Notes: a model not told the origin generated them from the letters alone. A stretch of DNA of 64,000 nt from Candidatus Zhuqueibacterota bacterium (GCA_042564455.1 JBHPLC010000002.1:25017-89016), one strand, 5' to 3'. Numbered from the stretch's first letter, positions 1,504 to 61,963 are shown. Numbers and translations: made by a program.

Positions 1504-1509
1504 CAAAAG

Positions 1510-3146: not shown

Positions 3147-3159
3147 TTTCCAGCAACTA

Positions 3160-45250: not shown

Positions 45251-45326
45251 TCCTCGGTAGCTCAATTGGCAGAGCGGGTGGCTGTTAACCACTAGGTTGT
45301 AGGTTCGAGTCCTACCCGAGGAGCCA
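45251..45326 (+). tRNA. tRNA-Asn (anticodon GTT), CCA encoded
   Basis: Acceptor TCCTCGG pairs with CCGAGGA. Anticodon loop is CTGTTAA. T arm is GTAGG-TTCGAGT-CCTAC. Discriminator G followed by CCA. Confidence 0.92.
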
Positions 45327-46938
45327 GTCTTGACACTTGGGCGAAACAACTGTTAACCGTTTCGCCTTCTTTTTTGTTATTAACAGCTGATAAATCAAAA
45401 ACTTCCAGCGCTTCTTCCCATAAAATAACTTCAAGAACGCCTTCACCTGTTTTTGTATCCTCTGTTATTTCAATCTTTTTAACAACGGTAGGTAATAGAC
45501 GAAACAATTCGGTGGGATCAGCAGAATCTATAATCTGTGAAAAATCTTTGAGGGTTCTCGCAATCACATCAGCATTTAATGTTTTCGTTTTGATTTGTTC
45601 TTCCTCTAACTCAATTTCCTGAAACTCTTGTTTTACTACATTTAATGATTTTTGCACACTTTCAAGCTCATTTGCTACAATTTTTGCTCCTTCTGCCCCA
45701 AGTTCACGTATTGATGCGACATAGGAATCTCTTTTAACTGTCAGATCATTGATACGTTTTCGGTAAGTAACTTTTTCAGATGCGAGCTTTTTCAATACCT
45801 CGCTATTTGTTTCAATTGATTTTGAAACTATTTTATCTAACATCTCTCTATTAACACTTAACTGTCTAATCCAATCAAACACCGCTTTTTCTGTAGTCTC
45901 TGCACGTAGATTTTTTTGATTGCAAGCAATTTTCCCGACGTGATTTTTCTTAGTACATTGATAATAATCATATTTTAATCCGCCACGTCCATGAGCTGAA
46001 GAGGGCACCATAGCAGCCCCACATTTCCCGCATCTTAGAAGGCCTTTCAATAAATATACTCTATCACCACCAAGTAGTGGATTTCTTCTCGTCTCTCTGT
46101 TCTTTTCGAGAATAGATTGTACCGTTTTAAATGTCTTCTTTGGAATTATCGCCTCATGTCTACCTTTATAGATATTGTCATTATGTCTTATCATGCCAAT
46201 ATAAACAGGATTGGACAATATATTAATAACGGTCTGCTTGTTAAATATCCTTCCACCGTGCCTTTTGCCAGTCTTTGAAATATATTCAGGAGTACGATAC
46301 CCCTTTTCATTAAGCCAGTCTCTTGTTTTTCCAGCAGATCCGCACCGAATACAGGCTTTAAAGATTTCCTTAATCAGTTTTTTGCTTTCAGGATTTACAA
46401 GAAGAAGTCCTTTACGATCATTAGAAAGGTCATAGCCAGGAACACGGCTACCATTCCATAAACCCTGCTCAGCCCTCCACTGCATTTTTTCTCGTGTACG
46501 TTCCCCAGTGATCTCCCTTTCAAGTTCAGCAAACAGTAAAATCATTTTTAAACCGAACCGTCCCATAGGAATTGTTGTATCAAATTTTTCATTTTTTGAG
46601 ATGAATCCTACACCATTTGTATCAAAAAGATCCCATAGATCATAAAAATCTTTCAGTGAACGAGTAATTCTGTCAATTTTTGTGACCAATACTACATCAA
46701 CCAAACCATGTTTAATATCATTTATTAATCTTTTAAATTCGGGGCGTTCTAAGTTTTTGCCAGATTTTCCTTCTTCCCTGTAAACATCAGAAACTTCCCA
46801 AGTCTCGGGTGGTGATGGGCAAACTTCAACATATTTCCGCAATATATCTTCCTGAGTATCTAACGAACCATCAGGAGTATTAGCTTGCTGAATAGATGAA
46901 ACTCTCGTATATATTGCTACGTTCTTCGTTTCTTTCAT
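45292..46938 (-). CDS. Large serine recombinase (integrase)
   Basis: 548 aa. Resolvase catalytic domain (VAIYTRVSSIQQ...VLVTKIDRITRS), recombinase domain, zinc ribbon (CGKCGAAM...YYQCTKK...C), and a long coiled coil. The last 35 nt (LAPRVGLEPTT) overlap the 3' half of tRNA-Asn on the opposite strand. Confidence 0.88.
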   Translation of the reverse strand: MKETKNVAIYTRVSSIQQANTPDGSLDTQEDILRKYVEVCPSPPETWEVSDVYREEGKSGKNLERPEFKRLINDIKHGLVDVVLVTKIDRITRSLKDFYDLWDLFDTNGVGFISKNEKFDTTIPMGRFGLKMILLFAELEREITGERTREKMQWRAEQGLWNGSRVPGYDLSNDRKGLLLVNPESKKLIKEIFKACIRCGSAGKTRDWLNEKGYRTPEYISKTGKRHGGRIFNKQTVINILSNPVYIGMIRHNDNIYKGRHEAIIPKKTFKTVQSILEKNRETRRNPLLGGDRVYLLKGLLRCGKCGAAMVPSSAHGRGGLKYDYYQCTKKNHVGKIACNQKNLRAETTEKAVFDWIRQLSVNREMLDKIVSKSIETNSEVLKKLASEKVTYRKRINDLTVKRDSYVASIRELGAEGAKIVANELESVQKSLNVVKQEFQEIELEEEQIKTKTLNADVIARTLKDFSQIIDSADPTELFRLLPTVVKKIEITEDTKTGEGVLEVILWEEALEVFDLSAVNNKKEGETVNSCFAQVSRLAPRVGLEPTT

Positions 46939-48087: not shown

Positions 48088-48121
48088 AACAATCCCTGCT
48101 CAAAAGGTGGATTTACGGACA
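48088..48121. repeat. 34-nt direct repeat block, copy A
   Basis: AACAATCCCTGCTCAAAA, 5 variable nt, then ATTTACGGACA. Same blocks and spacing at 48883-48916. Confidence 0.75.
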
Positions 48122-48221
48122 TGTATGAACATACGGGGACAGTAAATAGTTACAATTTTGATTATTATAATCATACCTCAAAAATTCTCTCACTTGTGAT
48201 AACCCTCATATGAACAACCCA

Positions 48222-48719
48222 TCAATTTTTATGATGTTTATCTGCATACTTCTCGATTACTATCCTGGCAGCATGTTCGGTGCTGCAACCTGATTTCACT
48301 AAGGTGAAAAATTCCTTTAGCATTTCTATCTCTTCTTTGAAAACATCTTTAACTTGAGCTATTCGGTCTCCTTGATACTGATGAGTTACTGGGTGCTTTG
48401 GATACTTGTGTTTTATCTTTTCCAGAAACTCCTGTTTTTCTGTCTCACTCTTAAAATCCATCTTTTCCCGAATCTCCAACTCTCTCCCTTTGGCAATTTG
48501 CTCGGCAACCAAGTACGATACAGTCGCCTGCATTCGCTCTTCTCCTTCTCCAAATTCTTCAACGTCTTTATTCCGCTGTTCTTCTGAGTAACTCAACACC
48601 GTGGACCAGTATTTCGTCATATTGTTTATGATAAATTCTTCTAACGTCATTTTATTAAATCCCGTAGATTTGCGTTTTGAAATTGTTGGAGTGATTGGAT
48701 TAAAAGTTAAGAAAAACAT
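48222..48719 (-). CDS. Hypothetical protein
   Basis: 165-aa ORF, charged/helical. The likely true start is the internal Met (MTLEEFIINN). No recognisable family. Confidence 0.45.
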   Translation of the reverse strand: MFFLTFNPITPTISKRKSTGFNKMTLEEFIINNMTKYWSTVLSYSEEQRNKDVEEFGEGEERMQATVSYLVAEQIAKGRELEIREKMDFKSETEKQEFLEKIKHKYPKHPVTHQYQGDRIAQVKDVFKEEIEMLKEFFTLVKSGCSTEHAARIVIEKYADKHHKN

Positions 48720-48811: not shown

Positions 48812-48838
48812 CAAAAAAGACGGTTCTTACACCGTCTA
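48812..48838 (-). terminator. Rho-independent terminator for the giant-protein-1/peptide operon
   Basis: On the minus strand reads AGACGGT-GTAAGA-ACCGTCT followed by T6. Lies 125 nt downstream of the peptide stop. Confidence 0.65.
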
Positions 48839-48882: not shown

Positions 48883-48916
48883 AACAATCCCTGCTCAAAA
48901 CATGTATTTACGGACA
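48883..48916. repeat. 34-nt direct repeat block, copy B
   Basis: See 48088-48121. TTACGGACA is additionally duplicated just downstream, at 48918-48926. Confidence 0.75.
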
Positions 48917-48962
48917 ATTACGGACATTCGCAGACAGAAAATGAGTATTTACTCATCATTTC

Positions 48963-49157
48963 TTATTTCCCGCCCTTTCTGAATGTCTGGAAGAGCATGT
49001 ATGCCATTAACACAATTCCATAGATTCCGGGATTGCCCCATGGGATCGTTCCCACCGGATTTACCGGAGGGCCGGGAGGCGCTTGGGCGAACAGCATTAA
49101 CGCTGACCCAAATATCAAAGCTGTGCCGATAACTAAATACTTTATAAGGTTTCTCAT
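48963..49157 (-). CDS. Conserved 64-aa membrane peptide: signal peptide, Pro/Gly-rich segment, TM helix, basic tail (copy 1)
   Basis: MRNLIKYLVIGTALIFGSALMLFAQA / PPGPPVNPVGTIPWGNPGIYG / IVLMAYMLFQTF / RKGGK. GGGAG RBS. Lies 17 nt after the giant-gene stop. 54/64 residues are identical to 54860-55054, and only synonymous changes occur in the central 23 codons. Confidence 0.8.
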   Translation of the reverse strand: MRNLIKYLVIGTALIFGSALMLFAQAPPGPPVNPVGTIPWGNPGIYGIVLMAYMLFQTFRKGGK

Positions 49158-49174
49158 TTATATATACTCCCAAT

Positions 49175-52100
49175 TTATCTTAAGAGAATTAATCTCATTG
49201 TTTTTGTATTGCTGCTCGAGATCAGTTTGTAAAAGTACATTCCGCTCGAAACATCCATGCCGCTGTTGTCCTTTCCATTCCAGACTACTTTATGATAACC
49301 GGCGGATTTTTCTGTATTCACGAGGGTTCTCAACTCCTGTCCCAGTGAATTATAGATAGCCAGCTTAACATGTCCGGTCTGCGGAAGTCCGAATTCGATC
49401 GTGGTTTTCGGATTGAATGGATTTGGAAAATTCTGTTTCAGTGTATAGTCATCCGGAATAACATCGTTTTCTGTTCTTGTGTCTTTGCTGAGAACGATCT
49501 TGAATCTTCTTTGCTCCAGTCCGTCATCTGCAAGTTTTTTGGTAAAATCTGTCGGATCATCTGCAAAAAGAACTGGACCCGGTGAAGATTTGGATGTTCT
49601 TGGAATGACGTTAAATGTGAAAGAACTGTTTTTCTGCATATCAATTCTATCACCAGTCAGTTCATCTATAAGCATAAAACCAAGCTCGCTATTATCAATA
49701 TCAGGAATATCCCAGTTCACAGTAACCTGACTGGATGAACTGTTGGTCATCACAATAAAATCCCATGAAGAGCCTTCATCACTGGATTTTCTGATGTCCT
49801 GTGTGTAATATCCCGGGTTGGTTTCCCAGCCGTTATGCGGAAATGACAGCGAGATGAATTCATCGTTTAGCGAAACCAGTTCGAACACGTCTCCACGGTC
49901 AAACCTTGGATCAGCCCAGTCAGCCATTCCGATATAATTGTGCGTGTCAATATTTTCACCGCTTTCTGCGGAAATCTTCATCCGCCAATCAAGCTCTAAT
50001 AATTCACCGCCGCCCATCTTGCCGACACCCGGATAGCTTATCGTCACTTCTTCCGCATCCTGGTTGGTGCGCACCCAGAAGCCGCTCCAGGGAGCTATGG
50101 TCGAAGTCAGACTGCCGCCGGGGAGTCCGTTGCCCAGGTAAAAATCATATTCCGAACCTGTCCAGCGGTAATATACGTTATCCATTCCGCTTCCCACGGC
50201 CACATCGTCATCCCAGTCTATGTCAACTCCGTAGGGATTGCCGAGCATATGCCAGCCGTTGGAATTTGTATAGGTTAATGTGCTGGTGATGTCCGCTGTT
50301 TCCTGAAGGCCGGTGACGTCCACATTAGACGGATCAAAAGCGTAAAGTATGTACCCTGTACCGTTTGATAATTCTGTCGGTATGACCCATTCACCCAATG
50401 CTTCGTTATATTCATATATATTGGAATTGTTGGTTTCGTACCTGAACGGGGCTATGTCGTCTGAGAAGATCGATACGGGATTGACCACGTCTTCAGGAGA
50501 GACAGGAAGGCTTATCATGCTCCACCCCGGCTGCATTATGGAGGAGGAAGTCGTATCGTTAACTTCGATGACACCGTAGATCGAGAAGTGGTTGATCTTT
50601 ATCTTGACGGTATTGTCAACGTGGTTTATGACATGGTCGCCTCTAACACGCTGCCAGATCTGTTTTGCGATATCCCAGATATGCACCCGCATATTTTCCT
50701 TTTTATTCTTGACCTCAAAATCCAGGAACTCCATCGTAAGCTCTACAGAATCCCTGAAGGTAAATCCGCCTTCGGATCCTTCAACAATGAAGCTTACTGC
50801 TGACGGACACTTTTCGAGTTCCGTTATTGGAATATCAGCTTCGGACGGCTGCTGCACAATAATGCTCTTGCTGCCTATAATCGCTCCCGGCGGGATATCA
50901 ACGGCATGTTTTGTGAATACACCTCCGGAAGATATCTGAACTCTGCCCCCTAATGATGAATTAACTGCTATCGTTGTATCATTGAATACTTTTTCGTTCT
51001 TTAAATTGCGGTCGGCTACCGTGATCGTAAGAGTTTCCGCCAGGGTTAGAACACCATCGGACACATAAAACACTACCGTATATGTTCCGGCGTGCAAAAA
51101 TGAAGGATTCCAGTGGAATTTGCCTGTGTTGACATTAAAAGAAGCTACTGCTCCCGCAGGAAGTCCACTCAAGTCCGCCCAGAAGGATAAATTGCGATAA
51201 TTGCCCAACGGTGAAGTTACCTGAAACTCTATTTCTTCGCCCTCTTTAGTTGTTTTATCACCTATATGATTAAATAAAAAATTGACTGAAAATACATTAA
51301 TTGCATCATCCACTTCTGTAGCAACATAAACATGCTTATTATCCGGACTAAGTTCAACATCAACCGGTCCGTCTAAATAAGTATATCCATCAACTTCATC
51401 ACGATACATCTCTATAAAATCTAATTCACCTGTCTCTCTGTTTCTGTTGAATACACTTACAGCGTCATCAGTACGACCTCCGACAATTAGTATTCCACCG
51501 TCGGGACTGACCTTTATACCACGCGCTCCCTGTAGGCCGGTCAAGCCATCCTGCTCGTCAAAATATGACTTAACAAATGTGAGCAGACCTGTGGTCTGAT
51601 CCCTTTTTAATAAAACTATTGCATGATCCCTCTGACTGCCGCCATAAAGAAATTTCTCGTCAGGACTAATTGTAAGGTCGGTTACATTATCCAATCCATC
51701 AACACCGTCAGTATTGTCAATAACAACTTGGATCTGTGTCAATTTGCCTGTTTCTTCATCTATTCTGAATACTGCAATAGCATCCCCTGCTAAACCTGCC
51801 TGATAAAGAAATTTACCGTCAGAAGAAATCTCATTAGAACCACCCCCTCTTAGACCCGATACACCATTCTGACCTTCCAGAAGAGACTCTACGAAAGTTA
51901 ATCTGCCTGTTGCTGGATTCCTTTCAAAAACTGCCATAGAGCCTGATCCTCCATAATTAGAAATATATAAAAACTTTCCATCAGGTCTCAAGTTGCTAGT
52001 ATGTGGTCTTGACAGGCCTGAAATACCATCCTGACCGTTAAAAAGAGTTTCTAAATAAGTGAGTTTACCTGTTTTATCATCTCTTGTAAATGCAGCTACT

Positions 52101-54526
52101 GCATTTTCATTTGTTGACAGTCCGGTGGCATAAATATTCTTACCGTCCTGGCTTAAAGTAAGATCCCAGATATCATTAATACCGAGAAAACCATCAACTA
52201 AATTTTGATAAGATTCAATATAGGTAAGTTCTCCTGTGCCTGGATTCCGGGTAAAGAAGGCAATGTTATCCTCGCTATTTCCTGTAACATAAACATGTTT
52301 GCCATCAGAACTAAAGACTATTTTGCCTGTACCATTTATACCGGAAGTTAATTTCTTTACTACATTACTGAATGTTAATGTTCCTGTTGAAGAATTTCTA
52401 ATAAATTTAACTATTGTATCATCGGTATAACCAGATACATAACAATTATTGCCATCATTACTTATAGCAAATTCATATGGATTATCCATACCTGCAATTG
52501 ACTGGAGGTTGTTGTAATATGAAGTTAAATAAGTTAATTCTCCAGTAGAAGAGTTTCTGGAAAATACTACCAATGCGTCATCAAACCGGCCAACCGCATA
52601 TAAATAATTACCATCCAAACTTACCTTTAGAAAAGGTATTGTATTTAGTCCGTGTATACCACCTTCATTATTGGTATAAATGTAGTTGTTAAATGTCAGT
52701 TTACCTGTACTGGTGTTTCTTGTAAATAAAGTTATTGCATTTCGTCCATTATCTGATACATATAGATGTTTGTCATCCGGACTAATATCCAAAGTTCTTG
52801 GAACATCCAAACCAAAAAAATCATTAATACCTTCTTGATAGATATCATCAAAAGATAGGGCGCCAGTTGAATTATCTCTGCTATATGCAATAACAGAATT
52901 TGCTGAAGTAACATAAATAAAAGACCCGTCATTACTGATTACAAAACCACGTGGCCCCTCTATGCCACCGGAGCCTCCAACACCACCAACAGTAGTACTG
53001 AATACAGAATTTCCTGCGCCAGCAATCCAGCCGTTGTTTGCGTCTGTAAAATGAACTCCTTTAAGCCCTCTATCAAAAGGATGTATCTGAGTAGTCCAGG
53101 TGGTTCCACCATCTGCTGTGTAGACTATAGCGCTTTGTATGCTATTATTAAACTCACCGACGTTTCCAACCGCCCAACCTTTATTAGAATCAGCAAAATA
53201 AATATCCCATAATTTACCGTCACTTGCAATAGGTATGGTTTGTGCGGTCCAATCTGTTCCCCCATTAGTTGTTTTAAGAACTGTACTTTCATTGCCGGAA
53301 ACCCATCCGACGGTAGAACTCGTAAAATGTATTCCACGAAGTTCAACGGATGTGCCGCTAGTCTTAACCGCCCAGTTGTCGCCTCCGTCTACTGTTGCCA
53401 GAATTGTCCCGTTATTCCCGACAGCCCAGCCGTTATTAGCGTCAGTAAAAAATACGCCAAAAAGGTCTTCAGAAGTGTTGCTTGTCTGTGTATTCCAGGA
53501 AGAACCATCGGTTGTTTTGAGGATAATACCACCGCTGCCGACTACCCAACCGGTAGTGCCGTTGAAAAAATGTACTCCATAGAAATCATTCCCTAAATTA
53601 GGATTTTGTGAACCCCATGAACTACCGCCATCAGTAGATTTAATTATTGTATCATCCGAACCTACGATCCACCCATTATCAGCGTCAACAAAAAATACAG
53701 CATTAAGACTACGACCTGTACCTATTGAATAAGATTCCCAACTGCCGCCGCCATCAGCTGTTTTAATTAGAAGATCATTTTCACCTATTATCCAGACAGT
53801 ATTTGCATCAATACTGAAGACATCAGCAAAAGCAGTATTTCCACTGGTTGGCAATTCAAAAGTGTTCCATTTATAATCATTGCCTATGGTCTCAACATAT
53901 GATAATCTTCCTGTTGAAGTATTTCTGTCAAAAACAACTACTGCGTCACTAACATAACCAGTCACATAGACATGTTCATTATCCGGACTGACTTTTATAT
54001 CTAAAGCACCATTAAGACCTGGAAGTGAGATGTCGTCATTAAAATGAGTTTCCAGATACGTTAATTCTCCTGTATTAGAGTTTCTATCAAAAACAACAAC
54101 TGCATCACTAACATATGCCGCAACATATAGATTATTCCCATCCGGGCTTAATGCAATATATCTTGGAGCATCCAATCCAGCTATTATACCAGTGTTATTT
54201 TGATATCTCGCTATATAGGTTAAATCTCCACTTGATAGGTCACGGCTGAAAACAGAAATATCATCAGACACATATCCCGCAATATAAACAAACTTATCAT
54301 CCGAACTGTTTACAATACTACGAGCACCATCCAGACCCGGAATCGAATGGATCTCGGCGCCTGTTTCGACTTCGACGAATTTTAGAAGGCTGCCCTTATC
54401 GGTTTGGGCGAATATAGCAAAATTTGTAATCAGTAAACTGACCAAAATGAATAGAATTATCCTAAAGGAAGATCTTGCATGTAACATATCTTTGTTCCTT
54501 ACATAAAAGGGAATAATATATTTCAT
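49175..54526 (-). CDS. Giant secreted surface protein 1: lactonase-type beta-propeller repeats, embedded Ycf48/BNR-like propeller, Ig-like domain, ZU5-like domain (HFS), T9SS-type C-terminal sorting domain
   Basis: 1783 aa; the probable start is Met14 (54487), followed by a signal peptide. Many repeats of the SPDG..LYV..y.sD.v.VF.R...TG.LT type. W.VG..G.I..T.DGG..W repeats lie at about 52985-53870. The ZU5-like block is at 50567-50959. The C-terminus NFPNPFNPKTTIEF...GMYFYKL...RLILLR is typical of T9SS type A sorting domains. Confidence 0.85.
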   Translation of the reverse strand: MKYIIPFYVRNKDMLHARSSFRIILFILVSLLITNFAIFAQTDKGSLLKFVEVETGAEIHSIPGLDGARSIVNSSDDKFVYIAGYVSDDISVFSRDLSSGDLTYIARYQNNTGIIAGLDAPRYIALSPDGNNLYVAAYVSDAVVVFDRNSNTGELTYLETHFNDDISLPGLNGALDIKVSPDNEHVYVTGYVSDAVVVFDRNTSTGRLSYVETIGNDYKWNTFELPTSGNTAFADVFSIDANTVWIIGENDLLIKTADGGGSWESYSIGTGRSLNAVFFVDADNGWIVGSDDTIIKSTDGGSSWGSQNPNLGNDFYGVHFFNGTTGWVVGSGGIILKTTDGSSWNTQTSNTSEDLFGVFFTDANNGWAVGNNGTILATVDGGDNWAVKTSGTSVELRGIHFTSSTVGWVSGNESTVLKTTNGGTDWTAQTIPIASDGKLWDIYFADSNKGWAVGNVGEFNNSIQSAIVYTADGGTTWTTQIHPFDRGLKGVHFTDANNGWIAGAGNSVFSTTVGGVGGSGGIEGPRGFVISNDGSFIYVTSANSVIAYSRDNSTGALSFDDIYQEGINDFFGLDVPRTLDISPDDKHLYVSDNGRNAITLFTRNTSTGKLTFNNYIYTNNEGGIHGLNTIPFLKVSLDGNYLYAVGRFDDALVVFSRNSSTGELTYLTSYYNNLQSIAGMDNPYEFAISNDGNNCYVSGYTDDTIVKFIRNSSTGTLTFSNVVKKLTSGINGTGKIVFSSDGKHVYVTGNSEDNIAFFTRNPGTGELTYIESYQNLVDGFLGINDIWDLTLSQDGKNIYATGLSTNENAVAAFTRDDKTGKLTYLETLFNGQDGISGLSRPHTSNLRPDGKFLYISNYGGSGSMAVFERNPATGRLTFVESLLEGQNGVSGLRGGGSNEISSDGKFLYQAGLAGDAIAVFRIDEETGKLTQIQVVIDNTDGVDGLDNVTDLTISPDEKFLYGGSQRDHAIVLLKRDQTTGLLTFVKSYFDEQDGLTGLQGARGIKVSPDGGILIVGGRTDDAVSVFNRNRETGELDFIEMYRDEVDGYTYLDGPVDVELSPDNKHVYVATEVDDAINVFSVNFLFNHIGDKTTKEGEEIEFQVTSPLGNYRNLSFWADLSGLPAGAVASFNVNTGKFHWNPSFLHAGTYTVVFYVSDGVLTLAETLTITVADRNLKNEKVFNDTTIAVNSSLGGRVQISSGGVFTKHAVDIPPGAIIGSKSIIVQQPSEADIPITELEKCPSAVSFIVEGSEGGFTFRDSVELTMEFLDFEVKNKKENMRVHIWDIAKQIWQRVRGDHVINHVDNTVKIKINHFSIYGVIEVNDTTSSSIMQPGWSMISLPVSPEDVVNPVSIFSDDIAPFRYETNNSNIYEYNEALGEWVIPTELSNGTGYILYAFDPSNVDVTGLQETADITSTLTYTNSNGWHMLGNPYGVDIDWDDDVAVGSGMDNVYYRWTGSEYDFYLGNGLPGGSLTSTIAPWSGFWVRTNQDAEEVTISYPGVGKMGGGELLELDWRMKISAESGENIDTHNYIGMADWADPRFDRGDVFELVSLNDEFISLSFPHNGWETNPGYYTQDIRKSSDEGSSWDFIVMTNSSSSQVTVNWDIPDIDNSELGFMLIDELTGDRIDMQKNSSFTFNVIPRTSKSSPGPVLFADDPTDFTKKLADDGLEQRRFKIVLSKDTRTENDVIPDDYTLKQNFPNPFNPKTTIEFGLPQTGHVKLAIYNSLGQELRTLVNTEKSAGYHKVVWNGKDNSGMDVSSGMYFYKLISSSNTKTMRLILLR
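50567..50959 (-). other. ZU5-like domain with terminal HFS motif (giant protein 1, residues ~1190-1320)
   Basis: GGRVQISSGGVFTKHAVDIPPGAI...CPSAVSFIVEGSEGGFTFRDSVELTMEF...MRVHIWD...W..V...VKIKINHFSIYGV. The H-F-S codons are at 50582-50590. Confidence 0.55.
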
Positions 54527-54859
54527 ATTCGGATATATGGATAAATAATCCGTTAATTTGTATTCATCCTTGATATAGTGAAGCTAAATGGGGGAATGCA
54601 ATCAGAACCTTAAAGTTCAAAATTTGGAAATATCACACAGAAATGCTTAACATATTTAAGGTAGAAAAATTATATCAAAAACAGACGCTTCCCTCCACCA
54701 TTTAATAGTTGATATTTTATTTTCGGCAGAATTTGACAATACTTTAGAAAATTTATATTATTTTGTGGTAATAGGGAGTGATTTTGTGATATCTGTAAAT
54801 AAAGTACTGTAAATGAGGATGGATCGGCAATCTTAAAGATTTTGTGGCAGAATTGGTAT

Positions 54860-55054
54860 TTATTTCCCGCCTTTTCTGAATGTTCGGAACAGCATGTATC
54901 CCATTAGTACAACTCCGTATATTCCGGGATTGCCCCATGGGATTGTTCCAACAGGATTTACAGGAGGGCCTGGAGGAGCTTGGGCAAACAGTGTGAATGC
55001 CATGCCTAATAATAAAGCTGTGCTGATAACTGAATATTTAATAAGATTTCTCAA
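54860..55054 (-). CDS. Conserved 64-aa membrane peptide (copy 2)
   Basis: TTG start with a GAGGGG RBS, 13 nt after the giant-gene-2 stop. MRNLIKYSVISTALLLGMAFTLFAQAPPGPPVNPVGTIPWGNPGIYGVVLMGYMLFRTFRKGGK. Confidence 0.78.
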   Translation of the reverse strand: MRNLIKYSVISTALLLGMAFTLFAQAPPGPPVNPVGTIPWGNPGIYGVVLMGYMLFRTFRKGGK

Positions 55055-55067
55055 TTTTGCCCCTCTG

Positions 55068-58000
55068 TTATCTGATCAATAATAATTTCATAGTATTGAA
55101 ATAATTGCCTGATGTTATTCTGTAGAAGTAAACTCCTGTTGAAACTTCAGTTCCGAGATCATCCCTACTATCCCACATTATCGAATGATAACCCGCCTGA
55201 ACTTCCGTATTGACGAGTGTTCGGACTTTCTGCCCCAATGAGTTGAATATCACAATCCTTGTTAGTCCTGATTCGGGTATTCCATATTCGATCTTTGTTA
55301 TAGGATTGAACGGATTCGGATAATTCTGATTCAGAAAATAACTTTTTGGGACTAATTTATTTGAATCCTTAGAGAGAGTGATCGTAAAATTCCGCGATGT
55401 TACATCATCAGCCGATACTTTTTGAGTAAAATTGGTCGGATCTTCCACCCTCTCCGGTGCAGCTTCGCCGCTTTTCTGCAGAGCAGGTTTGCTGAAAGAG
55501 TAAATATTTACTGACCTCATGTCAATAATTTCACCTGATGTATTGTCTTTCATGTAGACATTGACATCAGATTCAAGTTCCTCCGGTATCTCCCAGTTCA
55601 GACTCACAAGATCATTTGAGCTGTTAGTTGCGACATCAAAATCCCATGAGATTTCATCAGAATTCGGTCTTATATCCTGTGTCAGATTAGTCGAGTTATT
55701 CAGGAAGTAAAGCGAGATAAACTCATCATTCAGAGGTGAGAGTTCATAAATGTCATGACCATCAAAACCTGTGTTTGCATTCTCTGCAACACCGAGATAG
55801 TTATGCGAATCTTTAACATAGCCGCTCTGTGCGATTATCCTCATTCTCCAGTCTGGCTTCGTGGGCTTTGAAACACCTTTTTTGTTCAGTCCCGGATAAG
55901 AAATGGTCAGTTCCTCTGCATCCATCGTAGTGTGCACCCAAAACCCCTGCCATGTTGAGATGGTTGAAGTCAGGCCTCCGTCCGGGTAAAACTCATACTC
56001 TGAGCCTGTCCAGCGGTAATAAACATTATCTGTTAACGGGTCTAATGTTACATCTGTATCCCAGTCGATATCAACTCCAAATGGATTGCCAATCAGATGC
56101 CAACCATTCGAATTAGTGTATGTTAATGAATGTGTGATATCTGCTGTTTCCACCAGTCCGTCAAGATCAATATTAGATGGATCGAAAGCATACAGAATAT
56201 ACCCCGTACCGTTATTTACTGATGAGGGTATAATCCAATCTCCCGCTGATTCATCATAAGAATATATGCTCGAATTGTTGATCTCATATCTGAATGGGTA
56301 GATATCGTCACTGAATAGTGACACGGGATCAGTACTAACGTCAAGTGTTACCGGCAGACTCACCATTCCCCAACCGGGAGACAATGTAGTCTCCTCTTCG
56401 GCTATTGATACTTCCGCCACTCCATATATTGAGAAATGCGTTGTTTTAGTTCTAACGGTGTTATTGATCCAATCTATTATATGATTGCCGCGAACTCGTT
56501 TCCACATCTGTTTCGTCTTGTCCCATTCGTGCACTCGCATATTAGATTTATCACTTTTAACTTCGAAGTCTTTGAATTCAATTGTAATTTCAACCGAATC
56601 TTCAAAAGTAAATCCGTTTTCGCTTCCCTGAACAACAAAATCTATTGCTGATGGGCAATTTTCCAACTCCTCTAAAGGTATGTCATCTAAATTAGGGGGC
56701 TGAACAATAATAATCTTATCTTCAGGTAAGGCATTTGGAGGAATTTCAACCTTATGCTTTTTGTAAAATCCAGTAGTGTCAACACTAATTGTGCCACCAG
56801 TCTCTTTTTTGAAACTCTTTGTATTAGATGCGGCTAAGCCTTTGATAAAATCAGCCTTTACCACAGTAATGGTAATTGTTTCTGAATCGGAATAATAACC
56901 GTCTTTAACGGTAAAAGTAACTTGATAAACACCAGCAGATCCAATATGAGTATTCCATTTGAAAGTAGCTAAAGTTTTGTCGTTGTTTGATTTAAAAGAA
57001 GCTCCGGCTGATTGTGGCAAATTCTCAGATGATTTTGAATAACTTCGAGACAAAATACCATCATAATTAGAAGTTACATCAAATGAGATTTTCTCACCCT
57101 CTGTATAGTTTTTATCTCCAATTGGATTAAGTTCAAGGGTAGCATAGTATTCCAGAACAAATATCTTAAAAGAGGATTCTGATGCAGCTCCCAAAGTGTC
57201 CTCAGCGCAAACTACAACTCTGTGTGTGTCCATTTGAGAGATGTTTGGCTTCCAATTTATCTCTCCCGTTAATGAATCAATACTCATTTCGAGAGGACCG
57301 TCTGTCAGAGAGAATTTAAATAAATCTCCGTCAATATCTGACGCAGTAACCACTGTTATAATTGCCTCTCCAACACCGGCAGTTATATCTGATATAGGAT
57401 CAATTTCCGGAGGCTGGTTTACATGCAGCACTGTAATATCCAGAGTATCTGCATCTTCACCTCCAAAAATATCATTTGCCTTAATAATCAAAGAATAATC
57501 ACCGCTCTGCAAAAATGATGGGGTCCAGTTTAAATCACCAGTCGTGCTGTCTAATGTTAAACCATCTGGTTTTGATCCAGAGATTGAAAAAAACAGAGAA
57601 TCTGATTCTACATCTGTTGCTGAAACCGTTAAATTCAGAGTATCTCCTTCATTAACTGTCTGGTCCTGTATATTTACTATTACCGGATGATTGTTTATAC
57701 TCAAAGTGACAGGACGGGTATACAGTGTTAAATCAGTGGCCATTGTGTTGGTTGCCTTACATATATAAACACCTGCATCTGAAGATTGTAAAGAATCGAT
57801 TGTCAGGGTACTACTGGTTGCACCAGAAATATTCGAGCCATTCTTGATCCACTGATACTGGGTAGCAGCACCTCCAGCTGACACAGTTAAAGAAAGATTG
57901 GTTCCTATTGTGACAGACGTATCTTTTGCAGCCCCAATGCTGTCCTGAGGAGAGTAATTAATACCTGTAATTCCGACATTTGGTTCTATATCTTCGAAGG

Positions 58001-60071
58001 TGAAATTGTTATTATAAATTTTTGTTGTTGTTAAGTTGGCAAGACTTGATAGATCAGGTAGAGAATCGAATCTATTATCTTGAACTTCAAAAATTATTAA
58101 ATCAGACATATTAGCAAAGCCAACTGGAACACTACCATTTAAACCAGTATTATTCAGAAAAAGGAACTTCATATTAATCAAATTACCAATTTCTTGAGGA
58201 ATTTGACCTATGAAACTATTGTTATTCAGATATAAAATCTGGATATTAATCAAATTACCAATTTCTTTTGGGATAGTGCCCGTAAACTGGTTTGAAAACA
58301 AATACAAATTAGTTAAACTTGTCATGTTACCTATTTCAGGTGGGATTTGACCAGTTAGACTATTACTATTGAGGTTAAATGTTGTTAAATTAGTGAGATT
58401 ATATAATTCCGGAGGAATTGAACCACTAAGGTCATTGCCGTTAAGCCAAAGTTCTTTCAATTTTACAAGGCTGGCTAGTTCTATGGGTATAGTGCCCGAT
58501 AAATTATTTAGGTTTAGATATAATGTCTGTAAACTGTCTAAAGTACCTAACTCGGGTGGAATTGAGCCAGTTACTCCAGTACTTTGAATCCACAAATTTG
58601 TCAAATTTGTTAAACTACCTAGCTCGGGTGGAATTGAGCCAGTTAGACTAATATCACTAAGTGATAGACTTTGTAATTTCGTAAGATTACCTAACTCTAG
58701 TGGAATAGAACCCGTTAGACTATTATAACTAAGATCTAAACTGACCAAATTAGTTAAAGTACCTAATTCTGGTGGAATTGAGCCTGATAAACTATTATGA
58801 TCTAGACCTAAATAGGTCAAATTTGTTAAAGTACTTATTTCTGGTGGAATTGAGCCGATAAGATTATTGCCACCTAAATATAAGGTTTCCAATGCTGTAA
58901 GGTTGCCAATCTCCGAAGGCATGGTACCCGTTAGATTAATAGATGAAAGAAATAACATAGTTACTCTTCCAGAAGTTACAGTTACTCCAGACCAGTCTGC
59001 TACTGAATTCCCTGCAAGCCAATTTGTTTTATCTGTCCAGTTCGCGCCATCAGTTGAATTATACAAAGCAACGAGAGCAAGTGAATCAGTTTTGACACCT
59101 GTTGACCATGTTTTAACAGCACCGTAACCACCGGCTGTAGTTATCTGCTCCTCATTACTAGTGCTAACTTCTCGTGCCCAAATATTTCCACCACGGCTAA
59201 AAACAATAAAACTATCATCCGGAGACCATATACCATTAGTGGAACCGTTATCTGTTGTTAATTGTGCAACGTTTGTAGTATTTAAGTCATACGTGAATAA
59301 GTTTAGTGATGACGATGAGCCAAAGGTAAACAGTACTTTTGATTTATCGTTAGAGACAGTTGGATAATTTTCATAAAGTGTACCTGCAGTGGAACTCCAA
59401 AGCGTCTCAGATTGCGAACCATCTGTCTTCACTTTAAAAAGTGAACAGTCATAGGATGTTCTGTTGCTTCGTGCTGTAATTGCCCAATCGGAATCTATAA
59501 AGCTTCCTGAAGCATAATCGTAGGAACTTGATACTGGGTTTGGATTGAACAACGAATAGGTCAAGGTGTTAGTATTTAACATCCAAGCAGAACCGCCAGA
59601 ACCCCAGGGTTCAAAAGCGGTTACAAGTAAAGAGTCTCCATGCCAGGCTGTAGGCAAGCTTAGGTCGAGAGAGGTAGGCACCATAGCCGCATCAGTTCCA
59701 TCTGCGTCCATTATCCACACTTGATATCTAGAGGAAGTCGCGTTGGACATGAAAGCTATTTTTGTTCCATCTGGAGATAATACTGGATATCCAACTCCAC
59801 CGGAGGAAGGTGTATAGATTGTACTCTCATTGCGAGATGCCAAATCCATCTTTACAATACTTCCAGCCTTGACAAAATAGATATCACCAACTAGACTAAA
59901 TTGCCCATAGGTATTATTAGAAAGAAATAAAACTAACAGCAATATTACTATTCTTAATTTCACATTAACCTCAAGAATTGTATTATATTGTTTTATAATG
60001 AGTAGAAACAGTAAGTCATTTATTATCGGCATGAATATCAGTATCTTTAATGATTCCCATTGAAAATTCAA
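55068..60071 (-). CDS. Giant secreted surface protein 2: PD40/TolB-like propeller, plant-type LRR array, I-set Ig, cadherin-like/putative Ig domains, ZU5-like domain (HFS), T9SS-type C-terminal sorting domain
   Basis: 1667 aa as listed; the probable true start is GTG at 59963 (VKLRIVILLLVLFLSNNTYGQ signal peptide). About 12-13 24-residue LRRs (L..L..L.L..N.L(S/T)GSIPPELG.L). QYQWIKNGSNISGATSSTLTIDSLQSSDAGVYICKATN is I-set-like. The C-terminal ~590 aa are colinear with giant protein 1. Confidence 0.85.
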   Translation of the reverse strand: MNFQWESLKILIFMPIINDLLFLLIIKQYNTILEVNVKLRIVILLLVLFLSNNTYGQFSLVGDIYFVKAGSIVKMDLASRNESTIYTPSSGGVGYPVLSPDGTKIAFMSNATSSRYQVWIMDADGTDAAMVPTSLDLSLPTAWHGDSLLVTAFEPWGSGGSAWMLNTNTLTYSLFNPNPVSSSYDYASGSFIDSDWAITARSNRTSYDCSLFKVKTDGSQSETLWSSTAGTLYENYPTVSNDKSKVLFTFGSSSSLNLFTYDLNTTNVAQLTTDNGSTNGIWSPDDSFIVFSRGGNIWAREVSTSNEEQITTAGGYGAVKTWSTGVKTDSLALVALYNSTDGANWTDKTNWLAGNSVADWSGVTVTSGRVTMLFLSSINLTGTMPSEIGNLTALETLYLGGNNLIGSIPPEISTLTNLTYLGLDHNSLSGSIPPELGTLTNLVSLDLSYNSLTGSIPLELGNLTKLQSLSLSDISLTGSIPPELGSLTNLTNLWIQSTGVTGSIPPELGTLDSLQTLYLNLNNLSGTIPIELASLVKLKELWLNGNDLSGSIPPELYNLTNLTTFNLNSNSLTGQIPPEIGNMTSLTNLYLFSNQFTGTIPKEIGNLINIQILYLNNNSFIGQIPQEIGNLINMKFLFLNNTGLNGSVPVGFANMSDLIIFEVQDNRFDSLPDLSSLANLTTTKIYNNNFTFEDIEPNVGITGINYSPQDSIGAAKDTSVTIGTNLSLTVSAGGAATQYQWIKNGSNISGATSSTLTIDSLQSSDAGVYICKATNTMATDLTLYTRPVTLSINNHPVIVNIQDQTVNEGDTLNLTVSATDVESDSLFFSISGSKPDGLTLDSTTGDLNWTPSFLQSGDYSLIIKANDIFGGEDADTLDITVLHVNQPPEIDPISDITAGVGEAIITVVTASDIDGDLFKFSLTDGPLEMSIDSLTGEINWKPNISQMDTHRVVVCAEDTLGAASESSFKIFVLEYYATLELNPIGDKNYTEGEKISFDVTSNYDGILSRSYSKSSENLPQSAGASFKSNNDKTLATFKWNTHIGSAGVYQVTFTVKDGYYSDSETITITVVKADFIKGLAASNTKSFKKETGGTISVDTTGFYKKHKVEIPPNALPEDKIIIVQPPNLDDIPLEELENCPSAIDFVVQGSENGFTFEDSVEITIEFKDFEVKSDKSNMRVHEWDKTKQMWKRVRGNHIIDWINNTVRTKTTHFSIYGVAEVSIAEEETTLSPGWGMVSLPVTLDVSTDPVSLFSDDIYPFRYEINNSSIYSYDESAGDWIIPSSVNNGTGYILYAFDPSNIDLDGLVETADITHSLTYTNSNGWHLIGNPFGVDIDWDTDVTLDPLTDNVYYRWTGSEYEFYPDGGLTSTISTWQGFWVHTTMDAEELTISYPGLNKKGVSKPTKPDWRMRIIAQSGYVKDSHNYLGVAENANTGFDGHDIYELSPLNDEFISLYFLNNSTNLTQDIRPNSDEISWDFDVATNSSNDLVSLNWEIPEELESDVNVYMKDNTSGEIIDMRSVNIYSFSKPALQKSGEAAPERVEDPTNFTQKVSADDVTSRNFTITLSKDSNKLVPKSYFLNQNYPNPFNPITKIEYGIPESGLTRIVIFNSLGQKVRTLVNTEVQAGYHSIMWDSRDDLGTEVSTGVYFYRITSGNYFNTMKLLLIR
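56417..56807 (-). other. ZU5-like domain with terminal HFS motif (giant protein 2, residues ~1089-1219)
   Basis: GGTISVDTTGFYKKHKVEIPPNAL...CPSAIDFVVQGSENGFTFEDSVEITIEF...MRVHEWD...W..V...VRTKTTHFSIYGV. The H-F-S codons are at 56430-56438. Confidence 0.55.
58005..58945 (-). repeat. Tandem 72-nt coding repeats (24-aa LRR units)
   Basis: Repeated strings such as CTCGGGTGGAATTGAGCCAGTTA (about 58552 and 58624) and GGTGGAATTGAGCC (about 58769 and 58843) recur with 72-nt periodicity. Confidence 0.85.
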
Positions 60072-60211
60072 ATATTTTTTCTTGACGACATAGAAAGATG
60101 ATTAATATACTGCCAATTTTTCATGATTGATTAAATAATAAATATAAACTTGACAGTATCCGACAAAAAAAAGACGGTTTTTTCACCGCCTTTCAATATC
60201 AGGTATTTCAC

Positions 60212-60343
60212 CTAATTATCATCCAATCTAGCACGCCGTCTTTTCAAATCACCAGGTCGTTCCCTTCTCCGTTGTCCCGGTGGAAACAATCGCCATTTAA
60301 TGAGCCAATGGTAAAACTTTTCAATCAATTTGCTTCCAGACAT
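60212..60343 (-). CDS. Possible 43-aa Arg-rich small protein
   Basis: Its ATG overlaps the upstream stop (TAATG), and GGAGG lies 6 nt upstream. MSGSKLIEKFYHWLIKWRLFPPGQRRRERPGDLKRRRARLDDN. Below the ORF-track size cutoff; speculative. Confidence 0.25.
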   Translation of the reverse strand: MSGSKLIEKFYHWLIKWRLFPPGQRRRERPGDLKRRRARLDDN

Positions 60344-60813: not shown

Positions 60814-60828
60814 AAGATATTCCTTTTG

Positions 60829-61776: not shown

Positions 61777-61963
61777 TAATTTTCTGGATTTTCTAATTAT
61801 TTACTGCTGGTAAAATGTTGAATTGTATACAATTATGAGGGCTGACGCTTCCAGAGGAGAGCACTGACTCGTTCAGAAGCAGAAGAGTTTGATTGGAGGC
61901 TGACTCATCCTTTCACATTTATGACCACCTAACCTGAATCAACCTTACCCACCTAACTGACAC

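What the first reader, a model, noticed from the sequence alone, without database searches (positions are those of the whole stretch)
48963..60071. Tandemly duplicated module: giant ZU5/T9SS-CTD surface protein plus conserved 64-aa membrane peptide
Two adjacent same-strand copies share one architecture: a giant secreted protein, a 13-17 nt gap with an RBS, then a 64-aa peptide.

The N-terminal two-thirds of the giants are unrelated. Giant 1 has lactonase-type and Ycf48/BNR propellers. Giant 2 has a PD40 propeller, a plant-type LRR array and Ig domains.

The last ~590 aa are colinear, with long identical strings (NMRVH, HFSIYGV, NGTGYILYAFDPSN, LTYTNSNGWH, DNVYYRWTGSEY). Both end in a T9SS-type sorting domain.

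A variable head on a conserved stalk, always paired with the same mini-protein, looks like a cassette system for displaying or shedding alternative binding modules. I cannot match it to a described system. It is flanked by mobile-element genes.
Basis: partly seen in the sequence, partly recalled or inferred. Interest (0 to 1): 0.8.

Follow-up and report, generated by a model that had tools for sequence, protein, structure and literature searches.

The report
Secreted giants paired with sorting-signal mini-protein
Two neighbouring gene pairs in a KSB1 bacterium each encode a huge surface protein exported by the type IX secretion system, followed by a tiny proline-rich membrane protein that looks like a stand-alone exosortase sorting signal; the pairing recurs in every relative examined, which hints at an undescribed way of handling or anchoring such proteins.

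Summary
On the minus strand lie giant 2 (55068-59963), peptide 2 (54860-55054), giant 1 (49175-54487) and peptide 1 (48963-49157).

**The giants.** They share about 700 C-terminal residues (51-53% identity): He_PIG, a ZU5-like sandwich ending in HFS, two uncharacterised beta domains (B, C) and a T9SS type A CTD. Their heads are unrelated.

**The peptide.** It is a genuine gene (dN/dS 0.13; 0.05 in the mature part). A homologue directly follows every close relative of the stalk that I could inspect (13 loci, KSB1-type genomes, a dozen different heads). One of these lacks the ZU5-like domain, so the peptide tracks the B-C-CTD block.

**What the peptide looks like.** It has a signal peptide (A|Q), a proline-rich linker, an [IV]P-W-G-x-P motif, a TM helix and a basic tail. 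This is the layout of exosortase/archaeosortase sorting signals.
- A homologue elsewhere sits beside an exosortase gene and a B-C-CTD cargo.
- Bacteroidota show the same order: T9SS cargo, PID-CTERM mini-protein, XrtX.
- The peptide matches no curated CTERM model, and no exosortase was seen in the KSB1 DNA available.

ZU5 is supported only by weak fold similarity. Verdict: a new variant of known sorting themes; its function is inferred, not shown.

The parts
55068..59963 (-). Giant 2, a T9SS type A cargo of 1631 aa (the longest ORF reaches 60071). Order of parts: signal peptide ...NNTYG|Q, PD40/DPPIV_N propeller, LRR array, Ig_3, three He_PIG domains, then the conserved C-terminal unit.
   Evidence: (P0014)
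55068..57131 (-). Conserved C-terminal unit of giant 2: He_PIG, ZU5-like domain (from 56798; HFS at 56430-56438), domain B (from 56378), domain C (from 55856), and the CTD.
54860..55054 (-). Mini-protein 2 (64 aa, TTG start). It begins 13 nt after the stop codon of giant 2; the RBS is GAGGGG.
   Evidence: (ACFL7D_00810)
49175..54487 (-). Giant 1, a T9SS type A cargo of 1770 aa (the longest ORF reaches 54526). Order of parts: signal peptide ...FAIFA|Q, lactonase-type propeller blades, Ycf48/BNR propeller, more lactonase blades, He_PIG, then the conserved unit.
   Evidence: (P0013)
50561..50950 (-). ZU5-like beta-sandwich of giant 1. It ends in H-F-S (50582-50590), followed by the strand IYGVIE.
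   Evidence: AF2 model with pLDDT >90. The best PDB fold hits are ankyrin ZU5. Motif census. No Pfam hit.
49994..50530 (-). Domain B of giant 1 (GWxMxSxP ... NSNIY ... NGWHLLGNP ... PWxGFWV). It is an uncharacterised beta domain and the most conserved part of the stalk.
   Evidence: (dN 0.25)
49463..49993 (-). Domain C of giant 1 (DWRxxI ... D.HNY.G ... D..DV.EL ... TQDIR), an uncharacterised beta domain.
49175..49429 (-). T9SS type A C-terminal sorting domain of giant 1 (TIGR04183 / FlgD_ig-like).
48963..49157 (-). Mini-protein 1 (64 aa, ATG start). It begins 17 nt after the stop codon of giant 1; the RBS is GGGAG. Layout: signal peptide (cleavage predicted at A24|Q25), Pro-rich linker, I-P-W-G-N-P motif, TM helix, RKGGK tail.
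   Evidence: (ACFL7D_00800)
48818..48837 (-). Intrinsic terminator about 125 nt downstream of mini-protein 1. A matching terminator lies at 60169-60194, upstream of giant 2. None lies between peptide 2 and giant 1.
   Evidence: (D13)
45251..46938 (.). tRNA-Asn (45251-45326, +) abutting a large serine recombinase/integrase (45292-46938, -). This is the probable left end of the integrated element that carries both cassettes.

Best explanation
**What the cassette is.** Each cassette is a two-gene unit: a type IX secretion (type A CTD) cargo protein plus a cognate sorting-signal mini-protein.

**The cargo.** It carries an exchangeable N-terminal 'head' with binding or enzymatic function. The head sits on a conserved rigid stalk: He_PIG, a ZU5-like sandwich, then domains B and C, followed by the CTD.

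**The mini-protein.** It appears to be translated from the same message. It is exported by Sec and loses its signal peptide at A|Q. What remains is a roughly 40-residue molecule with three parts:
- a proline-rich periplasmic segment;
- an [IV]P-W-G-x-P motif at the membrane surface;
- one TM helix with a short basic cytoplasmic tail.

This is the tripartite signature recognised by exosortase/archaeosortase enzymes (VPXXXP-CTERM-like).

**Inferred mechanism.**
1. A small XrtX-like exosortase encoded elsewhere in the genome cleaves at that motif.
2. It transfers the Pro-rich peptide to an envelope acceptor.
3. The product, or the unprocessed anchor, serves as the dedicated partner of the cargo's B-C module, for envelope attachment or sorting. 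This resembles the way SprF/PorP partners serve type B CTD cargo.
4. The HF|S/T site at the end of the ZU5-like domain may autocleave. The head would then be held non-covalently and could be shed.

**Shown:** the gene pair, its conservation and linkage, purifying selection, domain architecture, homology to an exosortase-adjacent mini-protein, and the parallel Bacteroidota arrangement.

**Inferred:** processing by an exosortase, physical interaction with B-C, anchoring, and autoproteolysis.
For: **Linkage.**
- A peptide homologue directly follows the stalk gene in the window (twice) and in L001, L002, L003, L004 (start only), L005, L006, L007, L008, L048 and L049.
- A third pair probably exists in the source genome. 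P0015 and P0003 are each recorded on a 4534-bp contig.
- L048 lacks the ZU5-like domain but keeps B-C-CTD and the peptide.

**The peptide is a real gene.**
- dN/dS is 0.135 overall and 0.05 in the mature part, with 13 synonymous against 3 non-synonymous changes.
- Invariant residues are Q25, P31, P34, I38, W40, G41 and P43.

**Sorting-signal character.**
- The layout is motif, TM helix, basic tail.
- hhalign of the peptide profile against the L051 mini-protein gives probability 96.4%. None of 100 segment-preserving shuffles reaches its score.
- The L051 mini-protein lies 53 nt upstream of an exosortase-family gene (TIGR04178, 70.6 bits against a cut-off of 23; best subfamily archaeosortase B). 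It is in the same operon-like cluster as a B-C-CTD cargo.

**Parallel in Bacteroidota.**
- L009 has the order: T9SS cargo with a B-like domain, 74-aa PID-CTERM mini-protein (NF046080, above cut-off), XrtX (NF046081, above cut-off).
- L010 has an XrtX-associated-like gene next to a B-like giant.

**Stalk structure.** AF2 gives pLDDT 90.7 and pTM 0.88, i.e. a compact three-domain module.

**Precedent.** A cognate partner gene directly downstream of T9SS cargo is documented in PMC12618676.
Against: - No KSB1 peptide matches PID-CTERM, VPXXXP-CTERM, PEP-CTERM or any other curated sorting-domain model, even at E <= 10.
- The profile comparison with the Arcticibacter PID-CTERM mini-protein is no better than shuffles.
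- No exosortase gene lies in the 64-kb window or in any KSB1-type locus fetched. I could not search whole KSB1 genomes.
- The exosortase link rests on one distant locus (L051 and L052 are near-identical) plus an architectural analogy.
- Exosortase products and acceptors are unknown in general.
- A peptide anchored in the inner membrane cannot by itself hold a protein outside the outer membrane.
- Peptide similarity does not track stalk similarity. For g1/g2 the stalk is 53% identical and the peptide 84%. For g2/P0015 the stalk is 62% and the peptide 48%. There is thus no sign of pairwise co-evolution.
- A distant B-C-CTD protein (L050) has no peptide.
Confidence: 0.45

Rival explanations
1. 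The mini-protein is an ordinary, unprocessed, single-pass inner-membrane protein. It acts in the periplasm as a dedicated escort, chaperone or secretion-specificity factor for the stalk before T9SS export. Functionally it would resemble SprF/PorP for type B CTD cargo, with no exosortase involved.
For: - The genes are tightly coupled, suggesting stoichiometric co-expression.
- The most conserved part is the periplasmic Pro-rich segment plus the IPWG motif, while the TM helix and tail vary.
- No exosortase was seen near any KSB1 cassette.
- No curated sorting-domain model matches.
- Cognate downstream partners have a precedent.
Against: - It does not explain the homologous mini-protein placed directly before an exosortase gene in L051.
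- It does not explain the identical cargo, mini-protein, XrtX order in Arcticibacter.
- The motif/TM/basic-tail layout at the extreme C-terminus is the hallmark of sortase-like sorting signals.
Confidence: 0.27
2. This is a programmed head-switching or phase-variation cassette system. Recombination between the conserved 3' blocks, or at the He_PIG junction, would swap which head is expressed, driven by the neighbouring recombinase.
For: - Two paralogues in one closed genome share a 96%-identical 1769-nt 3' block (B, C, CTD and peptide) under unrelated heads.
- The peptide genes are less diverged at synonymous sites than the adjacent stalks (pS 0.45 against 0.71-0.88).
- The head/stalk junction is disrupted in L001, L002, L003, L005 and L006.
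- A serine recombinase lies 2 kb away.
Against: - Both window copies are intact. They have their own signal peptides and are only 66-71% identical at the DNA level in the best stretches.
- No inverted or direct recombination sites flank the heads.
- The recombinase is a large serine integrase sitting at a tRNA gene, which is typical of an element integrase.
- There are no promoterless silent cassettes.
- Several of the disrupted genes come from low-coverage or long-read assemblies, where indel errors are likely.
Confidence: 0.08
3. There is no functional link. The peptide ORF is a hitch-hiker, or a spurious ORF copied along with the 3' end of the giant gene.
For: - Gene conversion copies the 3' block and the peptide together.
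- Many annotations fail to call the ORF (L002, L003, L008).
Against: - Purifying selection is strong.
- An RBS is present.
- Residues are invariant across lineages whose stalks are only 40-45% identical.
- The peptide is retained next to giants with a dozen different heads and in a member lacking the ZU5-like domain.
Confidence: 0.03
4. This is a polymorphic toxin/effector with a downstream immunity protein, carried by a mobile element.
For: - The proteins are large, secreted and modular, with a small gene immediately downstream, and they sit in a mobile island.
- ZU5 is known as a releasing peptidase in polymorphic toxins.
Against: - The variable part is N-terminal and consists of propellers, LRRs and proteases, not toxin domains.
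- The small protein stays conserved while the heads vary, the opposite of toxin/immunity pairs.
- There are no PADLOC or toxin hits.
Confidence: 0.02

Closest known systems
XrtX (exosortase X) / PID-CTERM sorting domain / XrtX-associated membrane protein system of Bacteroidota (NCBIfam NF046081, NF046080, NF046082). No paper on it is in the searched library.
   Same: - The partner is a mini-protein of about 65-75 aa: signal peptide, Pro-rich linker, short motif, TM helix, basic tail.
- It is encoded directly downstream of a T9SS type A cargo that carries a B-like domain (L009).
- The L051 relative of the KSB1 peptide is likewise next to a small (183 aa) exosortase and an associated membrane protein.
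   Different: - The KSB1 peptides do not match the PID-CTERM model. Their motif is IPWGxP rather than P-[IL]-D.
- No exosortase lies next to the KSB1 cassettes.
- The mini-protein gene is repeated after every cargo gene instead of sitting once beside the sortase.
VPXXXP-CTERM sorting signal / archaeosortase B (TIGR04143, TIGR04144)
   Same: - The invariant I-P-W-G-x-P fits [VI]-P-x-x-x-P, followed by a TM helix and basic residues.
- The best subfamily hit of the L051 exosortase is archaeosortase B (101 bits).
   Different: - That hit is below the subfamily cut-off (150).
- The peptides have no HMM match.
- The described system is archaeal.
- Here the 'cargo' of the signal is only about 16 residues of proline-rich peptide.
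Type B CTD cargo with cognate PorP/SprF-like shuttle genes (Flavobacterium johnsoniae; PMC12618676)
   Same: A T9SS cargo gene is followed immediately by a dedicated partner gene, apparently needed in stoichiometric amounts. There is one partner per cargo paralogue.
   Different: - The cargo here has a type A CTD (TIGR04183).
- The partner is a 64-aa single-pass or sorting-signal peptide, not a roughly 300-aa outer-membrane beta-barrel.
ZU5 / FIIND autoproteolytic modules (PIDD, UNC5CL, NLRP1, CARD8) and ZU5 releasing peptidases of bacterial polymorphic toxins
   Same: - The domain is a beta-sandwich whose best PDB fold matches are ankyrin ZU5 domains.
- It ends in H-F-S/T followed by a beta-strand, like the HF|S cleavage sites.
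- It packs tightly against the following domains.
   Different: - There is no sequence-profile match to ZU5, FIIND or UPA.
- Fold scores are weak (E 1.5e-3; TM 0.47 to a single ZU5).
- Cleavage is untested.
- Three of 23 members lack the His or the Phe.

Membership tests
T9SS type A CTD cargo (TIGR04183 / PF18962) | C-terminal sorting domain of about 80 aa scoring above the curated cut-off | tested here: met
   TIGR04183 gives 36.9 bits (g1, residues 1700-1780) and 38.0 bits (g2, residues 1584-1663); the cut-off is 23. The Pfam PF18962 scores (23.5 and 26.0 bits) fall just below Pfam's cut-off of 27.
T9SS type A CTD cargo (TIGR04183 / PF18962) | N-terminal Sec signal peptide | tested here: met
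   Read directly from the sequence: MLHARSSFRIILFILVSLLITNFAIFA|Q and VKLRIVILLLVLFLSNNTYG|Q. No predictor was run.
T9SS type A CTD cargo (TIGR04183 / PF18962) | T9SS machinery (SprA/Sov, PorU/V, GldKLMN) present in the same genome | not tested
   Only 64 kb of the genome is available, and the other genes in the window were not screened for T9SS components.
ZU5 domain (PF00791) / FIIND (PF13553) | Match to the family profile | tested here: not met
   No ZU5, FIIND or UPA hit at E <= 0.01 in the giants, nor at E <= 10 in ten ZU5-like+B segments. The profile search against PDB found nothing.
ZU5 domain (PF00791) / FIIND (PF13553) | ZU5 beta-sandwich fold | tested here: inconclusive
   - The top Foldseek PDB hit of the high-confidence model is ankyrin ZU5A-ZU5B (3ud2_B, E 1.5e-3, probability 0.92).
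- 3kbt_C gives TM 0.47 over 143 columns.
- No hit reaches E <= 1e-3.
ZU5 domain (PF00791) / FIIND (PF13553) | Autoproteolysis at an HF|S-type site | not testable with these tools
   The motif H-F-[ST] is present in 20 of 23 members, and the S/T in all 23. Cleavage itself needs biochemistry.
PID-CTERM / XrtX system (NF046080-82) | C-terminal domain matches the PID-CTERM model | tested here: not met
   None of 9 KSB1-type peptides hits the model at E <= 10. The Arcticibacter control scores 29.6 bits against a cut-off of 26. hhalign against that control is no better than shuffles.
PID-CTERM / XrtX system (NF046080-82) | Tripartite sorting signal (motif, TM helix, basic cluster) at the extreme C-terminus after a signal peptide | tested here: met
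   The alignment of 11 peptides shows IPWGxP, about 17 hydrophobic residues, then K/R-rich ends.
PID-CTERM / XrtX system (NF046080-82) | Cognate small exosortase (XrtX-like) in the same genome | not testable with these tools
   None is present in the window or in L001-L008, L048 or L049 (phmmer). Whole KSB1 genomes could not be searched. One is present next to the homologous mini-protein in L051.
Type B CTD / PorP-SprF partner pairs | Cargo carries a type B CTD (TIGR04131) and the partner is a PorP/SprF-family outer-membrane protein | tested here: not met
   The cargo matches the type A model only. The CHU_C hits are weak (E 4e-4 and 6e-3, below cut-off). The partner is 64 aa and has no family hit.
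Polymorphic toxin / immunity pair | Variable C-terminal toxin domain with a co-varying downstream immunity gene | tested here: not met
   The variable part is N-terminal, and the downstream gene is conserved across different heads.

The most novel reading that the evidence does not exclude
Two protein-sorting systems may be coupled. An exosortase-family enzyme would process the Pro-rich mini-protein, and the product would become the envelope anchor or docking partner for the B-C module of T9SS type A cargo, either as a lipid- or glycan-linked peptide or ligated to the cargo itself. This would give small exosortases of the XrtX/XrtF/XrtY type, which have no demonstrated role, their first function. 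It would also reveal a surface-attachment route for T9SS cargo outside the A-LPS paradigm. In addition, a FIIND-like HF|S autocleavage would let the exchangeable head be shed.
Probability: 0.22. Interest if true: 0.85.

Novelty: new variant of a known kind. Interest (0 to 1): 0.6.

Why it matters
- **Anchoring of T9SS cargo.** How type IX cargo is retained on the cell surface is understood mainly for Porphyromonas (PorU-mediated linkage to A-LPS). It is essentially unknown in other FCB-group phyla.
- **Role of small exosortases.** Small exosortases such as XrtF, XrtX and XrtY are curated in databases, but I found no published function or substrate logic for them in the searched library.
- **A testable hypothesis.** A strictly conserved pairing of one class of T9SS cargo with a mini-protein that looks like a bare exosortase sorting signal is seen in KSB1 and mirrored in Bacteroidota and a third lineage. 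It suggests the two systems cooperate.
- **Domain annotation.** The conserved ZU5-like-B-C stalk is a confident, compact fold with no close relative in the PDB. It defines domain families absent from Pfam.
- **Possible shedding.** The HF[S/T] site raises the possibility of a bacterial extracellular, FIIND/GAIN-like shedding device.

Tried and rejected
1. **Sequence homologues of the peptide.** The word-indexed search with a single peptide found only the three copies in the source genome. A six-sequence profile added five clusters.
2. **Metagenome scan.** A degenerate DNA pattern scan for P..P...I[PS]WG.P..Y returned 37 loci, none a real peptide.
3. **ZU5 by sequence.** Pfam at E <= 10 on ten members found nothing. 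PDB profile searches with 6 and 31 sequences also found nothing.
4. **First AF2 run.** With a 6-sequence alignment, domains B and C failed (pLDDT < 50). A 31-sequence alignment fixed this. Foldseek still gives no convincing PDB relative for B or C.
5. **Curated sorting-domain models.** No hits for the peptides.
6. **Defence-system models.** Nothing for the giants or the peptide.
7. **Literature.** Searches for KSB1 + T9SS, PID-CTERM, XrtX and KSB1 + exosortase found nothing relevant.
8. **Co-folding.** Predicting the peptide together with the stalk was not possible. The structure tool takes a single chain, and the two genes are in different frames.
9. **Co-evolution.** Peptide similarity does not track stalk similarity among the three pairs of the source genome.
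10. **Rejected ideas.**
   - Immunity protein: the peptide is conserved while the heads vary.
   - Acceptor amine for PorU-type ligation: the predicted mature N-terminus is Gln, which is likely to cyclise.
   - Read-through fusion with the giant: the peptide has its own signal peptide and lies in a different frame.

Full report
**1. The observation**

All four genes are on the minus strand.
- Giant 1 is 49175-54526 as the longest ORF. The NCBI protein P0013 starts at 54487 and has 1770 aa.
- Giant 2 is 55068-60071 as the longest ORF. P0014 starts at GTG 59963 and has 1631 aa.
- Each giant is followed, after 17 or 13 nt containing GGGAG or GAGGGG, by a 64-codon ORF: 48963-49157 and 54860-55054.
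- BLASTP aligns the last ~700 residues (709 alignment columns) of the giants at 51% identity and nothing upstream.
- The peptides are 84% identical.
- Pfam and NCBIfam confirm lactonase plus Ycf48/BNR propellers in giant 1. In giant 2 they confirm PD40/DPPIV_N, an LRR array, Ig_3 and He_PIG. Both giants have a T9SS type A sorting domain above the curated cut-off.
- ZU5 is not found by sequence.
- Strong intrinsic terminators bracket the four genes at 60194-60169 and 48837-48818. None lies between peptide 2 and giant 1.
- The source is an NCBI 'candidate division KSB1 bacterium' MAG, locus tags ACFL7D_00800 and ACFL7D_00810.

**2. The peptide is a real gene**

- Between the two copies dN/dS is 0.135.
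- In the mature part it is 0.05, with 13 synonymous against 3 non-synonymous differences.
- Across 11 homologues, Q25, P31, P34, I38, W40, G41 and P43 are invariant. A24, P28, P30, Y46 and Y53 are nearly so.
- The invariant A-Q lies where the giants of this family end their own signal peptides (FAIFA|Q, NTYG|Q, SLFA|Q ...). This pattern is known as the Bacteroidetes Q-rule (PMC5837995).
- The mature product is therefore probably about 40 residues: a proline-rich stretch, I-P-W-G-x-P, roughly 17 hydrophobic residues, and a basic tail.

**3. How general the pairing is**

*Size of the stalk family.*
- An exhaustive profile search of 1.84 billion representative proteins finds the full stalk in about 22 clusters at 50% identity.
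- Those proteins are 664-3427 aa long.
- Their heads include M6 and C10 proteases, LVIVD repeats, Reg_prop/Ig arrays, BNR propellers, beta-helices, LRRs, FG-GAP and lactonase.
- Named members are all KSB1 or unclassified 'bacterium'.

*Linkage to the peptide.*
- Wherever I could read the DNA downstream of a close stalk gene, a peptide homologue follows within 12-38 nt. The loci are L001, L002 and L003 (uncalled ORFs), L004 (start only, at the contig end), L005 and L006 (two loci in one closed 3.78-Mb genome), L007, L008, L048 and L049.
- A third pair in the source genome is inferred. P0015 (an M6-protease head plus the stalk) and peptide P0003 are each recorded on a 4534-bp contig.
- Conversely, every peptide homologue with known context sits next to such a cargo.
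- The peptide family is rare: 8 clusters among 5.8 billion proteins, and no true hit in the JGI metagenome set.

*Which part of the stalk the peptide follows.* P0038 in L048 has a C10 protease head and domains B, C and CTD, but no ZU5-like domain. It still has the peptide. The peptide therefore tracks the B-C-CTD block.

*More distant B-C-CTD proteins (about 30% identity).* These behave differently.
- L050 has no peptide.
- L051 is discussed in section 5.

**4. The stalk**

- With a 31-sequence alignment, AlphaFold2 gives a confident model of giant 1 residues 1193-1688 (ORF numbering): pLDDT 90.7 and pTM 0.88. This indicates three beta domains packed as one module.
- The best PDB fold matches are ankyrin ZU5 domains: 3ud2_B at E 1.5e-3 and probability 0.92, and 3kbt_C at TM 0.47. 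Nothing reaches E <= 1e-3.
- Domains B and C have no convincing structural relative and no sequence relative in the PDB or Pfam.
- The ZU5-like domain ends with strand TVKIKINHF, then S, then strand IYGVIE.
- H-F-[S/T] is present in 20 of 23 members, and the S/T in all of them.
- This resembles the HF|S autocleavage sites of PIDD and FIIND, and the ZU5 'releasing peptidases' described in bacterial polymorphic toxins. Cleavage is untested.

**5. What the peptide resembles**

*Layout.* A signal peptide, a linker, a short motif, a TM helix and a basic tail at the extreme C-terminus form the layout of exosortase/archaeosortase sorting signals. I-P-W-G-x-P fits [VI]-P-x-x-x-P, the VPXXXP-CTERM pattern.

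*Locus L051/L052 (a high-GC organism).* The gene order is:
1. an OmpA/PorE-like gene;
2. a 68-aa mini-protein (signal peptide, EPTPPPPPPPTHMVPAAGG, TM helix, RLRRRN);
3. a 183-aa exosortase/archaeosortase-family protein (TIGR04178, 70.6 bits against cut-off 23; best subfamily archaeosortase B at 101 bits, below its cut-off);
4. a 173-aa membrane protein;
5. a subtilisin-B-C-CTD cargo.

The KSB1 peptide profile aligns to this mini-protein with hhalign probability 96.4%, and no segment-preserving shuffle out of 100 reaches its score. The L048 peptide behaves the same way, with probability 94.2%.

*Bacteroidota loci.* Both were recovered only through similarity to domain B.
- In Arcticibacter (L009), an 802-aa T9SS type A cargo with a B-like domain is followed after 49 nt by a 74-aa protein that passes the PID-CTERM model (NF046080). 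After a further 30 nt comes exosortase X (NF046081, 174.8 bits against cut-off 170).
- Also in L009, an XrtX-associated-like membrane protein lies beside a second T9SS giant.
- Chitinophaga (L010) shows the same XrtX-associated-like gene next to a B-like giant.

*Caveats.*
- The KSB1 peptides match no curated CTERM model, even at E <= 10.
- They are not detectably homologous to the Arcticibacter mini-protein.
- No exosortase lies in the window or in the KSB1-type loci.
- Whole genomes could not be searched.

**6. Interpretation**

*Best supported reading.* This is a two-gene cassette: a T9SS type A cargo with an exchangeable head on a conserved stalk, plus a cognate mini-protein that is essentially a bare exosortase-type sorting signal.

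*Proposed mechanism (inferred).* A small exosortase encoded elsewhere processes the mini-protein. The product, or the membrane-anchored precursor, partners with the B-C module for envelope attachment or sorting.

*Closest documented analogues.* The functional analogue is the type B CTD cargo with its SprF/PorP gene directly downstream (PMC12618676). The architectural analogue is the XrtX/PID-CTERM system.

*Main rival.* The peptide could be an unprocessed inner-membrane escort.

*Programmed head switching.* This is not supported. There is, however, clear evolutionary recombination.
- L005 and L006 share a 96%-identical 1769-nt block (B, C, CTD and peptide) under unrelated heads.
- In the window, the peptide genes are much less diverged at synonymous sites than the stalks.

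**7. Context**

The cassettes lie inside an integrated element.
- tRNA-Asn (45251-45326) abuts a large serine integrase (45292-46938).
- An HTH repressor-like gene, an orphan 165-aa ORF, DUF3310, DUF932 and a UvrD/GajB-like helicase surround the cassettes.
- Relatives in other genomes are not in obviously mobile contexts.

**8. Verdict**

The giants are ordinary as T9SS cargo. The obligate pairing with an exosortase-like mini-protein, and the uncharacterised stalk, are new variants of known sorting themes and worth experimental follow-up.

Noticed in passing
window 45251-46938 and 60343-63802: tRNA-Asn abuts a large serine integrase. Together with an HTH repressor-like gene (47481-47948), DUF3310, DUF932 and a helicase, this suggests that both cassettes ride on an integrated prophage-like element whose right end lies beyond the window.
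   Followed up: partly
window 61964-63802 (-): The UvrD-type helicase matches Gabija GajB models over its full length (PADLOC E 3e-81). A GajA partner would lie upstream, beyond position 63802 at the edge of the window.
   Followed up: no
window 1411-1504 (+): A selenocysteine tRNA (anticodon TCA) was predicted by ARAGORN.
   Followed up: no
window 48088-48147 and 48883-48942: A 60-nt direct repeat (82% identical, containing TTTACGGACA-like units) brackets the orphan 165-aa ORF 48222-48719, just downstream of peptide 1 (D6).
   Followed up: no
L002 628-630; L001 ~3140-3158; L003 1036-1540; L005 7988-8510; L006 7993-8297; L008 4184-7380: The head/stalk junction near the He_PIG domain is repeatedly broken in relatives.
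- L002 has an in-frame TAA inside He_PIG.
- L001 has a frameshift (2.87x coverage).
- L003 is fused to an unrelated N-terminal ORF.
- The long-read assemblies show split genes.

These may be assembly errors, pseudogenes or a recombination hotspot.
   Followed up: partly
L005 8461-10229 vs L006 8461-10229: Two loci 413 kb apart in one closed genome share a 96%-identical 1769-nt block covering domains B, C, CTD and the peptide, beneath unrelated heads (Reg_prop against lactonase). This indicates gene conversion or recent copying of the 3' block.
   Followed up: partly
L051 66-6072 (and the near-identical L052): An operon-like cluster runs: OmpA/PorE-like protein, 68-aa Pro-rich mini-protein, 183-aa exosortase-family protein, 173-aa membrane protein, subtilisin-B-C-CTD cargo. 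The source organism was not identified.
   Followed up: partly
L009 935-11291; L010 918-6822: In Arcticibacter and Chitinophaga MAGs, the XrtX / PID-CTERM / XrtX-associated genes are interleaved with T9SS type A giants that carry a B-like domain. I found no publication describing this link.
   Followed up: partly
N-termini of P0013, P0014, P0016, P0018, P0019, P0025, P0028, P0038, P0040 and the peptides: Signal peptides of this KSB1 family almost always end in A|Q or G|Q. This Q-rule-like pattern has been reported as specific to Bacteroidetes and not general to the FCB group (PMC5837995).
   Followed up: no
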